Shown here: one piece after another, positions 28,069-30,788 of the stretch
How positions within the stretch are numbered: position 1 is the first letter of the stretch
Layout of the letters: each line of letters opens with the position of its first letter
Source of the DNA: Octopus sinensis
Lineage: Eukaryota
NCBI RefSeq assembly: GCF_006345805.1
Contig: NC_043000.1
Coordinates: 153,140,001 to 153,204,000 of the forward strand
DNA length: 64,000 nt
Direction: 5' to 3'
Position numbers and translations under genes: made by a program
The notes under the pieces: generated by a model
The model's database searches: none
What the model saw: the letters and a program-made list of their open reading frames with translations, nothing else
Told to the model about the DNA's origin: nothing

Positions 28069-28706
28069 TGAAAGGATTTCTATATTTTCTACCCCTATAT
28101 AAGATACTAATATTTATTAAAATCCTTTAGAATATTATCTAAAGGATATGTACTTAAATTTCTTAATATCGAATCTGGATGTTAAATGGTAAGGGACATT
28201 GAAAGCATCTAGAGCACTAGGAGTCTATGTTCCCCTACCTCTCTAACTTCGACCTACTAGCTTTTTGCTATAATACATTCAAATATATCTAAACTGAAGT
28301 CCTCAAAATGGGAATGGATTTATGGTTTTGACATTTGTACTACACCTTCCTATATCTATAAATAGAAAAAATTCTTTGTCTCCACCCAAACAAAAATAAA
28401 ATCCCCTCCCCACTGACATATCAAAAGAACTCAATGATAAAATTTACAATCAGAGTGTGGATATACTACTATGACGTTCTTAAGAAAGAAATCAACCTCT
28501 CTGTCTATATATCTACCCTCTTTATAATGTTGGCAAATGAAATATGGATAAGAATATGTATTGTCCGTTTGATTGAAAAATTCTATAAGTGGCTGAAGAT
28601 TGCTCGACATTTTAAAACTGATGTAATACTTACAGTGTTTAATAAAATGAAGTAGCATGAAACAATTGTACTACTCTACCTTGGATATACTTGTTGCTTA
28701 TTTTGA

Positions 28707-28710
<4 letters not shown>
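27300..28710 (+). mobile_element. PLE 3' end and long AT-rich 3' region with internal ~258 bp tandem repeat and terminal hammerhead-like motif
   Basis: Starts LLNNRSELGLSCINC, resembling the LLN.RSE...C end of PLE ORFs. Repeat units at ~27555-27805 and ~27813-28073. Ends at (TA)n. Confidence 0.55.
28588..28675 (+). ncRNA. Type I hammerhead-like ribozyme with extended stem II
   Basis: AGTGG-CTGAAGA-t[tgct..catttta..tgtaa tac ttaca..taaaatg..agca]t-GAAA-CAATTG-TA-CTACT. Stem I is AGTGG/CTACT, stem III is the palindrome ACAATTGT, and the cleavage triplet is GTA. Confidence 0.65.
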
Positions 28711-28750
<40 letters not shown>

Positions 28751-29083
28751 CAAAAATAAGGGCAAAAGAAAAATTCTAATGCCAAATATGCCGAAAAAAG
28801 ACAAAATTTGTCAATAACCATTATAATTTTTGCGACTCGAAACAAACCGATAGAAATTTCTAAAAAATCCGTTATAACCGTATTGGTCCCAATTTCGGGG
28901 TTAATTCATAAGAATTTTCCCCTCCTCATCGATAAATACGCGAGATATAAGTGAAATACTTACTCATACCCATGGAAAAAGCAAGCACTAAGTCCTGGGC
29001 AGATTTGACCTTTAAAGATATTTTTTGATATGCTGGCCATTGATAAAATTTTTTTCCCGAAAAAAATTTTATCCTTCATTAAT

Positions 29084-29147
<64 letters not shown>

Positions 29148-29164
29148 AATGATATATTTTATAT

Positions 29165-29375
29165 TTAGTGGTTGGTGCATTCGGCTCACGATCGTGAAGT
29201 CGTGAGTTCAATTCCGGTGACGCGTTGTGTCTTTGAGCAAGACCCTTTATTTTCACATTGATCCAGTCCACTCAGCTGGCAAAAATTAGTAGTTCTTTTG
29301 TCTCAATAGGCCCCCTAATCACACTCTGTGTCACGCTGAATCTCCCTGAGAACTGTGCTAAGAGTACACGTTCCG
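29165..29375 (+). mobile_element. tRNA-headed SINE related to family C (different 3' part)
   Basis: tagtggttgg...gagttcaattcc...ctttgagcaag...cactcagctggcaaaaat.agta. Confidence 0.7.
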
Positions 29376-29403
29376 TTGATTATATTATATATATACATGA
29401 GTG

Positions 29404-29440
<37 letters not shown>

Positions 29441-29545
29441 TATATATATATAGTGTAATAAATAAAATATATGCATACATACATACATATATGTACGTAC
29501 CTACATCTACATGTATATATACATGCATATATATATATATATATA

Positions 29546-29598
<53 letters not shown>

Positions 29599-29777
29599 GT
29601 GAGTACAGGACACCACAAATAGACGCAGAACTCAACGAGAACGAAAACGTAAAAATAAGCATGGAACGAACCTTTTTTTTACAAAGAAAAAACAGAGTAC
29701 TAGACAAACTGCACAAGGAAAAATCCCCTTCATCAGCTGTCCCTAGTTCAACTCCAGCGTGTTTCGAAGGTGAGGAC

Positions 29778-30123
29778 GAGGCGCAATGGCCCTTGTGGTC
29801 AGGGCAGCGAACTCGCAGTCGTAGGATCGGGCTTTCGATTCCTAGACCGGGTGTTGTGAATGTTTATTGAGCGAAAACATCTAAAGCTCCACGAGGCTCC
29901 GGCAGGGCGTGGTGGCGAACCCTGCTGTTCTCTTTCAGCACAACTTTCTCTCTTACTTCCTGTTTCTGTTGTTACACTCTGTGTCACGCTGAGTCTCCCC
30001 GAGAACTATGTTAAGCGTACACGTGCCCGTGGAGTGCTCAGCCACTTGCACGTTAATTTCACGAGCAGGCCGTTCCGTTGATTGGATTAACTGGAACCCT
30101 TGTCGTCGTAGCCGACGGAGTGC

Positions 30124-30126
<3 letters not shown>
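29778..30126 (+). mobile_element. tRNA-derived SINE family D
   Basis: Head gaggcgcaatggccc.tgtggtcagggcagcg. A partial inverted copy is at 46195-46363. Confidence 0.75.
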
Positions 30127-30165
<39 letters not shown>

Positions 30166-30702
30166 ATAGATAGATAGGGAGAGATAGATACACGCACACT
30201 GCATTTTCGCCCGGCGTGCTAACGTTTCTGCCAGCTCGCCGCCTTCGATCATGGACGGCTACGGGATTGCACCTGTGAAGTTCTCCTCTGTGGCATAATT
30301 CCGAGCAATGATGTTTGTGGAAGATCAGTATACCATACATACCAGTCTTCCGTCTCCCCGCCAACGTGGAAAGGCTAAGTGAACAGATGAAATAGTGTCT
30401 TGCTCAAGAATACAACGCATAGAACGGTCCGGGAATTGAACTCACAAACTCATGATTGTAAACCTGACGCTCTAGCCACTGTCCGATACGCCTTCGTGTT
30501 CCTGTTTGCGTGTATATATGTGCGTGTGTGTAAGCCGACCAAAGCTTTGCAGTTATAAGCAAAGTTTTGGTCAGTTAGCATCTGAACCACACGACCTTAT
30601 GTTCCTAAAATTCATATCTACATCTTTATCTATAAATTTACCTTCCCTAAGATGTTATTACTTGATTTGAAAACTTTTATATTATTGGAAATCCTATATA
30701 AA

Positions 30703-30788
30703 TTAGCTGAAGATGACTCAGCATCTTAAATCTGCTGTAATATTTACAGCTTTTAATAAAATGTTGTAGTATGAAACAATTGTACTAA
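30703..30788 (+). ncRNA. Second copy of the extended-stem II hammerhead-like motif
   Basis: TTAG-CTGAAGA-tgactcagcat...gctgtaa tat ttacagc...atgttgtagtat-GAAA-CAATTG-TA-CTAA. The downstream cttgttgcttatttt is shared with 28690. Confidence 0.62.

What the first reader, a model, noticed from the sequence alone, without database searches (positions are those of the whole stretch)
28588..30788. Two hammerhead-like ribozymes with an unusually long stem II and compensatory stem I changes
Seen: both copies (28588-28675 and 30703-30788) have CTGAAGA ... GAAA-CAATTG-TA. Between the boxes is a ~55-60 nt hairpin capped by tgtaa-NNN-ttaca and containing AATAAA. Stem I differs between copies yet still pairs (GTGG/CTAC versus TTAG/CTAA, including a G-C to U-A swap). 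Known: PLE pseudo-LTRs carry type I hammerheads with palindromic stem III that act as dimers, usually with a short stem II. Inference: this is a variant with an extended stem II, a non-canonical U-U at the base of stem II, and a poly(A) signal folded inside the ribozyme. That could couple self-cleavage to 3' end choice.
Basis: partly seen in the sequence, partly recalled or inferred. Interest (0 to 1): 0.75.

Follow-up and report, generated by a model that had tools for sequence, protein, structure and literature searches.

The report
Long-armed hammerhead hiding a poly(A) hexamer
Both motifs are hammerhead (predicted self-cutting) RNA folds at the tail ends of two separate, truncated copies of a Penelope-like jumping gene, a known pairing; in this lineage one arm is stretched to 59 bases and always carries AATAAA or ATTAAA about 24 bases before the predicted cut, which may let polyadenylation compete with self-cutting but is untested.

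Summary
Both motifs are type I hammerheads in the 3' ends of two independent, 5'-truncated insertions of Hydra-type Penelope-like retrotransposons (PLEs), subfamilies A and B, not the two ends of one element. The genome holds 2,309 exact-core copies of this ~59-nt-arm lineage (0 controls). Stems I and II covary: 15 of 26 pairs change on both sides; 0 of 500 shuffles reach this. The U-U at the base of stem II is not new: Hydra-clade PLEs and axolotl retrozymes have it in print, and relatives here use G-C, A-U or G-U. The long arm is a real variant that Rfam misses, though thousands of other long- and short-armed forms coexist. The poly(A) idea has suggestive support. A(A/T)TAAA lies 23-26 nt before the cut in 19 of 19 subgroups. 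All three heritable changes went AATAAA to ATTAAA, and a GU-rich stretch follows the cut. But other lineages lack the hexamer and no RNA end was seen. The scan found long-armed Hydra hammerheads before, in this and other genomes, and the embedded hexamer in another genome. New variant of a known kind.

The parts
27292..28707 (+). 5'-truncated Hydra-type PLE insertion, subfamily A: likely last ~28 codons of the endonuclease, ~1.2-kb 3' UTR, hammerhead, 'short' 3' end into (TA)n
   Evidence: 90% identical over 1454 nt to L083 and 88% over 1466 nt to L078, which carry endonuclease codons just upstream; L078 piece matches Pfam GIY-YIG above cut-off. The codons in the window are recognised by eye only; tblastn did not detect them.
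27555..28057 (+). ~255-bp tandem duplication inside the 3' UTR, shared by other subfamily A copies
28588..28675 (+). Hammerhead 1 (type I): stem I 28588-92/28671-75, core 28593-99 and 28659-62, predicted cut after 28670; identical to the subfamily majority
   Evidence: 87 bits with model R1, which was built with it; 0 of 88 differences
28600..28658 (+). Extended stem II, 59 nt: U-U base, basal helix, AU-rich middle, apical TGTAA-TAC-TTACA hairpin
28641..28646 (+). AATAAA, candidate polyadenylation hexamer, ending 24 nt before the predicted cut
28662..28669 (+). Palindromic stem III ACAATTGT (2 pairs plus AAUU loop as monomer, 8 pairs as dimer)
   Evidence: sequence; duplex -6.4 kcal/mol
28691..28699 (+). 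GU-rich TTGTTGCTT, the least changed stretch outside the core in the lineage; candidate downstream poly(A) element or reverse-transcriptase start determinant
   Evidence: 0 shared changes; short 3' ends follow it
30550..30906 (+). Independent 5'-truncated insertion, subfamily B: 3' UTR end, hammerhead, 'long' 3' end into (TA)n
   Evidence: 91% over 278 nt to the 3' end of near-full-length element L076 and 86% to its inverted arm
30703..30788 (+). Hammerhead 2 (type I), predicted cut after 30784; private T-to-G change at 30715 weakens the base of stem II
30755..30760 (+). AATAAA in stem II of hammerhead 2

Best explanation
These are the 3'-end hammerhead motifs of two separate dead copies of Hydra-type Penelope-like retrotransposons, from a lineage whose stem II grew to a covarying 59-base hairpin that carries an A(A/T)TAAA hexamer 23-26 bases before the predicted cut; the ribozyme likely cuts only slowly, as a dimer or with the element's protein, and the hexamer plausibly serves as a partly hidden poly(A) signal that competes with it. 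Shown: the element anatomy, copy numbers, covariation among subfamilies, hexamer conservation, neutral decay of inserted copies, and two 3' end classes about 37 and 135 nt past the cut. Inferred: selection acted on the RNA of active master elements. Cleavage needs pairing of two ACAAUUGU palindromes or protein help. Transcripts have alternative fates: polyadenylation in or next to the ribozyme's 3' half gives mRNA, while read-through (or cut-and-ligated) RNA keeps the downstream 37-135 nt and is the template for new copies. The poly(A) step is the weakest link (about 0.35-0.4).
For: Anatomy: L076 and L135 carry an inverted 5' arm, an RT with RIRW/RWK and DKT motifs, a CxCX5C linker, a C-terminal GIY-YIG, a 3' UTR, then the hammerhead in sense, then (TA)n. 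These are the Hydra features and resemble Hydra-1_Obim by eye. Covariation on 22 chosen subfamily rows: 87.7% of cells paired, 15 of 26 pairs with double changes, 0 of 500 shuffles reach either; slid controls 33-48%; RNAalifold alone recovers 4 of the 5 stem I pairs and the basal and apical helices of stem II. Across 33 clusters of all arm lengths, stem I pairs 3.88 of 5 vs 2.29 (max 3.06) in 10,000 cross-cluster shuffles, and N17 is A, C or U in 32 of 33. Hexamer: 19 of 19 subgroups and 74 of 76 copies; 2,162 genome matches with it vs 2,309 without asking for it (spacer ranges differ slightly). Three separate multi-copy branches carry ATTAAA (287 matches), while the 3 copies lacking a hexamer among 80 are single tips. 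Only 1-2 of 18 single changes keep a hexamer. Protein-assisted cleavage and reverse-transcription starts downstream of the hammerhead are shown for an anole PLE (PMC11167929).
Against: No cleavage or RNA-end data. Column by column the hexamer is not unusually conserved: 36 of 123 six-base windows have as few shared changes (the count is inflated by a register shift in the alignment). With only A/T swaps, three hexamer-keeping changes have a chance near 2%, and the test is post hoc. The hexamer has one origin: of 34 groups outside my filter the 7 with it are members or deletion derivatives of the same lineage, and 27 others lack it. 2,071 short-armed motifs with the same stem III also spread, so neither the long arm nor the hexamer is needed to propagate. 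The hexamer is predicted to be mostly paired in many subgroups, so pairing may explain part of its conservation. Inserted copies decay neutrally (core 7 of 253 vs flank 101 of 2,411 differences). No protein tree was built, and the elements are ~3.8 kb, longer than the <3 kb typical of Hydra.
Confidence: 0.8

Rival explanations
1. The long stem II is a docking arm for the element's own RT-endonuclease (helping fold the ribozyme or place the template), and the AU-rich hexamer is part of that binding loop, not a poly(A) signal.
For: The anole PLE hammerhead cleaves only with protein. Several arm positions besides the hexamer are invariant across subfamilies (C24, A25, A32, G39, A42, A50). Long arms of 43-80 nt recur in lineages with no hexamer. 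The docking wording comes from earlier scan notes.
Against: Arm sequence and length differ widely among lineages, and short-armed forms spread as well. It does not explain why the three heritable hexamer changes all gave ATTAAA.
Confidence: 0.3
2. Stem II simply tolerates insertions: the arm is a neutral expansion kept paired only so the core can fold, and AATAAA is an AT-rich passenger inherited from one ancestor.
For: Arm lengths run from about 14 to 80 nt in one genome. The hexamer has a single origin, and 7% of shuffles of the last 30 nt contain one. Column conservation is unremarkable.
Against: The hexamer persists through subfamilies whose arms differ at many positions, always 23-26 nt before the cut and followed by an invariant GU-rich stretch. 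The apical helix is conserved and covaries.
Confidence: 0.35
3. One of the window copies has been adopted by the host as a regulatory ribozyme or poly(A) site.
For: Copy 1 has 0 of 88 differences from its subfamily majority in the hammerhead but 29 of 503 in the UTR upstream.
Against: 1 of 23 other copies is also perfect and many have 1-2 differences. Copy 2 is damaged. No host gene was identified here.
Confidence: 0.05

Closest known systems
Hammerheads of Hydra-clade Penelope-like elements (Craig et al. 2021, PMC8557442; passages, section 11, supplement parts 1-2 and searches read)
   Same: Sense orientation near the 3' end; CUGANGA-U...U-GAAA with U-U at the base of stem II and a similar basal helix; short self-complementary stem III; U-rich stretch behind the cut; (TA)n targets; RWK, DKT and CxCX5C motifs in the protein.
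   Different: Listed Hydra motifs have loop 2 of 3-10 nt; here the spacer is 59 nt with internal loops and an A(A/T)TAAA. The 3' UTR is 0.9-1.2 kb and the element ~3.8 kb. The string GAAACAATTG was not found in that supplement.
PLE-X1_sMoe and PLE-X1_sTam hammerheads; Naiad 'HHR_half_core' cases (same paper)
   Same: PLE-associated hammerheads with a long stem II/loop 2 (about 50 nt in all), or core halves 35-50 nt apart.
   Different: Other clades (plant EN-minus elements, Naiad); flagged only as deviating, no covariation or hexamer described in what I read.
Minimal PLE hammerheads (Cervera and de la Pena 2014, PMC4209133; parts 1-2 of 4 read)
   Same: Palindromic 15.2-16.2 region, short stem I, predicted dimers, low activity in vitro.
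   Different: Helix II 7-8 bp with conserved G10.1-C11.1 and an extra base after A9; here a 59-nt arm with a variable 10.1-11.1 pair.
HDV antigenomic ribozyme and poly(A) site (Brown et al. 2008, PMC2396440; abstract only)
   Same: A poly(A) site close to a self-cleavage site, proposed as a choice between mRNA maturation and replication intermediates.
   Different: Different ribozyme class; there the poly(A) site lies 33 nt upstream, outside the ribozyme; here the hexamer would lie inside it. This is 'works like', not membership.
Axolotl HHR_Amex2 retrozyme hammerhead (Cervera and de la Pena 2020, PMC7229834; passages and section 15 read)
   Same: U-U at the base of helix II, 2-bp stem III with tetraloop; cleaves 22% as monomer and better as dimer.
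   Different: Short helix II; non-coding tandem repeat rather than a coding PLE.

Membership tests
Type I hammerhead ribozyme | Core CUGANGA...GAAA...UH with stem I open | tested here: met
   N17 is A, C or U in 32 of 33 clusters although the pattern left it free
Type I hammerhead ribozyme | Three helices supported by covariation | tested here: met
   stems I and II covary; stem III was fixed by my search pattern, so it carries no covariation information
Type I hammerhead ribozyme | Match to an Rfam hammerhead model | tested here: not met
   no hammerhead family at E<=5 in 24000-36000 or E<=10 on copy 1; the long insert is the likely reason (inference)
Type I hammerhead ribozyme | Self-cleavage 3' of N17 | not testable with these tools
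   needs an in vitro assay
Type I hammerhead ribozyme | Loop 1-loop 2 tertiary contact of fast natural hammerheads | not tested
   no such contact was modelled
Minimal PLE hammerhead (Cervera 2014) | Palindromic stem III/loop 3 | tested here: met
   ACAATTGT, 8-bp duplex
Minimal PLE hammerhead (Cervera 2014) | G10.1-C11.1 and helix II of 7-8 bp | tested here: not met
   U-U in both window copies; G-C in 6 of 22 rows; spacer 59 nt
Hydra-clade PLE | RWK and DKT motifs in the RT | tested here: met
   L135 IRRIRWK and ADKTG; L076 RIRW and ADKTG; seen in relatives, the window copies lack the RT
Hydra-clade PLE | CxCX5C linker and C-terminal GIY-YIG | tested here: met
   L076, L078, L135; Pfam GIY-YIG above cut-off for L078 only, below for L076, no hit for L135
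Hydra-clade PLE | Insertion into (TA)n; sense hammerhead near the 3' end; inverted 5' arm | tested here: met
Hydra-clade PLE | Generally shorter than 3 kb | tested here: not met
   L076 is about 3.8 kb owing to an Asn-rich linker and long 3' UTR; the paper gives this as a tendency
Hydra-clade PLE | Placement in the Hydra clade on an RT tree; absence of CCHH | not tested
   only a by-eye comparison with Hydra-1_Obim
Non-LTR retrozyme | Non-coding tandem units each with a hammerhead | tested here: not met
   the window copies are pieces of coding elements; ~533-bp arrays exist in another lineage
Metazoan polyadenylation signal | A(A/U)UAAA with a GU/U-rich element downstream at fitting distance (consensus recalled, not from a call) | tested here: met
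   hexamer ends 23-26 nt before the cut; TTGTTGCTT 21-29 nt after it
Metazoan polyadenylation signal | Poly(A) addition 10-30 nt after the hexamer in RNA | not testable with these tools
   only assembled contigs were available; they cannot show ends

The most novel reading that the evidence does not exclude
A retrotransposon lineage has built its poly(A) signal into stem II of its hammerhead, so one ~110-nt module switches each transcript among three fates: polyadenylated mRNA (the processing cut falls in the ribozyme's 3' half), self-cleaved RNA, or read-through template for reverse transcription. It would be a natural ribozyme with an internal 3'-processing signal, an HDV-like choice evolved in a hammerhead.
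Probability: 0.35. Interest if true: 0.75.

Novelty: new variant of a known kind. Interest (0 to 1): 0.45.

Why it matters
The role of hammerheads in Penelope-like elements is an open question: cleavage was dispensable in vitro for the one element tested (PMC11167929). These elements have no poly(A) tail in their genomic copies, so how their mRNA ends is unclear. A lineage with a conserved hexamer inside the ribozyme, natural AATAAA/ATTAAA variants, and sister lineages with short arms or no hexamer gives a ready set of controls. It also shows that standard descriptors and Rfam miss thousands of hammerheads per genome when stem II is long (about 5,900 matches with spacers of 25 nt or more here).

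Tried and rejected
Rfam scans found no hammerhead. Two ends of one element: rejected; the copies match different subfamilies and no RT lies between them. Hammerhead antisense to the ORF (suggested by L003): rejected; that was the inverted 5' arm, and the 3' copy is sense. Naiad clade: rejected; the endonuclease is C-terminal. Intron starting at GTAAGT/GTGAGT in the ~45-nt-arm lineage: no conserved AG acceptor seen by eye in the 60 nt after the cut; not pursued. RNA: no RNA holder listed. Contigs of 6 runs only guessed to be RNA were laid; contigs cannot show ends, none of the loose ends shown was poly(A) (23 of 91 and 21 of 33 shown), and this is no evidence either way. Pfam gave no RT hit for L135 or L003 pieces, so the clade rests on motifs. 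Lunse et al. 2017 on PLE hammerhead dimers was not held; it and its supplements may describe long stem II variants that I could not see. The 2026 bioRxiv retrozyme paper was read in part 1 of 5 only; its supplements are closed. Five paper searches showed no report of a poly(A) hexamer inside a PLE hammerhead or of this long-armed family; most subscription papers and Repbase/Dfam were not searched.

Full report
Observation. The two motifs are in the sequence as described. Each has CTGAAGA, a 59-nt spacer, and GAAACAATTGTA; the predicted cuts fall after 28670 and 30784. The spacers fold as long hairpins better than shuffles (z -3.1 and -3.3), while the whole motifs do not stand out strongly, and copy 2's best fold is an alternative one. 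Rfam reports no hammerhead. The pattern is not chance: 801 matches vs 0 controls in the 2.72-Gb genome. Relaxed spacers with the same stem III add 2,481 (25-54 nt; 17 controls), 2,620 (55-81 nt, not starting with T; 6 controls) and 2,071 short-armed motifs (6-24 nt; 11 controls). The host is likely an octopus; this is my inference and was not tested.

What carries them. Copy 1 ends a 1.4-kb insertion (27292-28707) that is 88-90% identical to L083 and L078, which carry endonuclease codons directly upstream. Copy 2 ends a 0.35-kb insertion matching near-full-length element L076. L076 and L135 show an inverted 5' arm, an RT with RIRW/RWK and DKT motifs, an Asn-rich linker with CxCX5C, a C-terminal GIY-YIG, a long 3' UTR, the hammerhead in sense, and (TA)n. 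These are the stated marks of the Hydra clade of Penelope-like elements (PMC8557442 section 11), and the protein resembles Hydra-1_Obim by eye; no tree was built. The two window copies are independent insertions of subfamilies A and B. Of 76 lineage copies, 35 end 30-44 nt and 37 end 115-159 nt after the cut; copy 1 has the short end and copy 2 the long one. This matches the PLE 'tail', which in an anole PLE marks two reverse-transcription starts on RNA that runs past the hammerhead (PMC11167929 parts 1-2).

Is the fold under selection? On 22 rows chosen to represent subfamilies, 87.7% of cells pair, 15 of 26 pairs change on both sides, and 0 of 500 shuffles reach these values; slid controls give 33-48%. 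The structure was drawn by me from these sequences and they are related, so the shuffles overstate significance; RNAalifold on its own recovers 4 of the 5 stem I pairs and the basal and apical helices of stem II. Across 33 clusters of all arm lengths, stem I, which was not in the search pattern, pairs at 3.88 of 5 positions vs 2.29 in cross-cluster shuffles, and 18 of 33 spacers fold at z <= -2. In 23 of 24 subfamily A copies picked by upstream sequence alone (one did not span the motif), core positions differ from the majority at 7 of 253 and flanks at 101 of 2,411. So selection acted in the active masters, and inserted copies decay about neutrally. Copy 1 is still perfect (0 of 88); copy 2 has a private change at 30715.

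The U-U. It is not new and not fixed. Many Hydra-clade rows in File S2 of PMC8557442 read ctgatgat...tgaa. U10.1-U11.1 is reported in natural hammerheads as the best-tolerated mismatch (PMC3088659 passages). An axolotl motif with it cleaves (PMC7229834 section 15). Here 12 of 22 rows have G-C, A-U or G-U instead.

The long arm. Listed Hydra hammerheads have loops of 3-10 nt; two plant PLE-X1 motifs with arms of about 50 nt are flagged as deviating, and Naiad 'half cores' 35-50 nt apart are mentioned. So long arms have precedent as a curiosity, but five searches showed no description of this family; Lunse et al. 2017 could not be read. Earlier notes of this scan describe long-armed Hydra hammerheads in this and other genomes, and one describes the embedded hexamer in another genome; these are unchecked notes, not independent support.

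The hexamer. For: A(A/T)TAAA ends 23-26 nt before the cut in 19 of 19 subgroups and 74 of 76 copies; genome-wide 2,162 matches have it against 2,309 for the lineage pattern (spacer ranges differ a little). On a tree of 80 copies three separate branches switched to ATTAAA, each multi-copy in the genome (287 matches), while the three copies without a hexamer are lone tips. Only 1-2 of 18 single changes keep a hexamer. An invariant GU-rich stretch lies 21-29 nt after the cut. Against: the hexamer arose once; 27 groups from other lineages lack it and short-armed forms thrive; it is often predicted to be paired; 36 of 123 six-base windows are as conserved by column count; with A/T swaps only, the three events have a chance near 2%, post hoc; U-rich stretches follow the cut in lineages without the hexamer too.

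Mechanism. I read the module as follows. The hammerhead has a 2-bp stem III and likely cuts slowly unless two palindromes pair or the element's protein assists (inferred from PMC4209133, PMC11167929). Genomic copies keep 37-135 nt beyond the cut, so their templates were read-through or cut-and-ligated RNAs, not RNAs polyadenylated at the hexamer (follows). If the hexamer is used, the processing cut would fall in or beside the ribozyme's 3' half, and a ribozyme-cut end carries a cyclic phosphate that is not a poly(A) substrate (established knowledge, recalled). The two events would therefore compete, much as proposed for HDV, where the poly(A) site lies 33 nt before the ribozyme cut (PMC2396440 abstract). 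Partial pairing of the hexamer in stem II would let some transcripts read through. I put this poly(A) role at about 0.35-0.4; a protein-docking arm and neutral expansion are the rivals.

Verdict. Real, a member of the Hydra-type PLE hammerheads by motif tests, and a new variant by its 59-nt arm with a conserved hexamer. The U-U is known. The window copies are ordinary dead insertions. Interest 0.45; the novel case would deserve 0.75 if shown.

Noticed in passing
window 15310-15375 and 16116-16181 (+): Two identical hammerhead-like motifs with a 47-nt spacer and a CGCGCG-type palindromic stem III, inside an ~806-bp tandem duplication; stem I does not pair well. 189 genome matches vs 2 controls for long-armed motifs with this stem III.
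   Followed up: partly
window 34116-34204 (-): A decayed long-armed relative: GAAACAATTGTA intact, 5' core damaged; 19 bits, E 0.14 with model R1.
   Followed up: partly
window 31049-31337: Inverted repeat with 128-nt arms (92%) holding a short-armed hammerhead-like motif with a TTGAGGA 5' core at about 31185 (-) and a damaged partner on +; looks like an inverted PLE end pair.
   Followed up: no
window about 46000-46070 (+): Another hammerhead-like motif with a TTGAAGA 5' core, ~40-nt GC-rich spacer and AGCT palindrome.
   Followed up: no
G000:C1:95539937-95548525 and L039-L047: Tandem arrays of ~533-bp non-coding units, each with a ~50-nt-arm hammerhead sharing the ACAATTGT palindrome: retrozyme-like.
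   Followed up: no
L031-L050, L096-L105 (44-50-nt-arm lineage): The tip of stem II reads GTAAGT, GTGAGT or GCAAGT, all splice-donor-like, closing a GUANNA hexaloop; no conserved acceptor was seen downstream.
   Followed up: partly
L076:2660-3260, L135:2635-3500: Long Asn-rich low-complexity expansion between RT and endonuclease in these elements.
   Followed up: no
L078:3820-5620; L085:4880-5499: An RT of another PLE type (DKG motif) directly abuts subfamily A sequence: nested insertion or chimera.
   Followed up: no
window 14900-16700: An ~806-bp tandem duplication of mixed repeats, possibly an assembly or local duplication.
   Followed up: no
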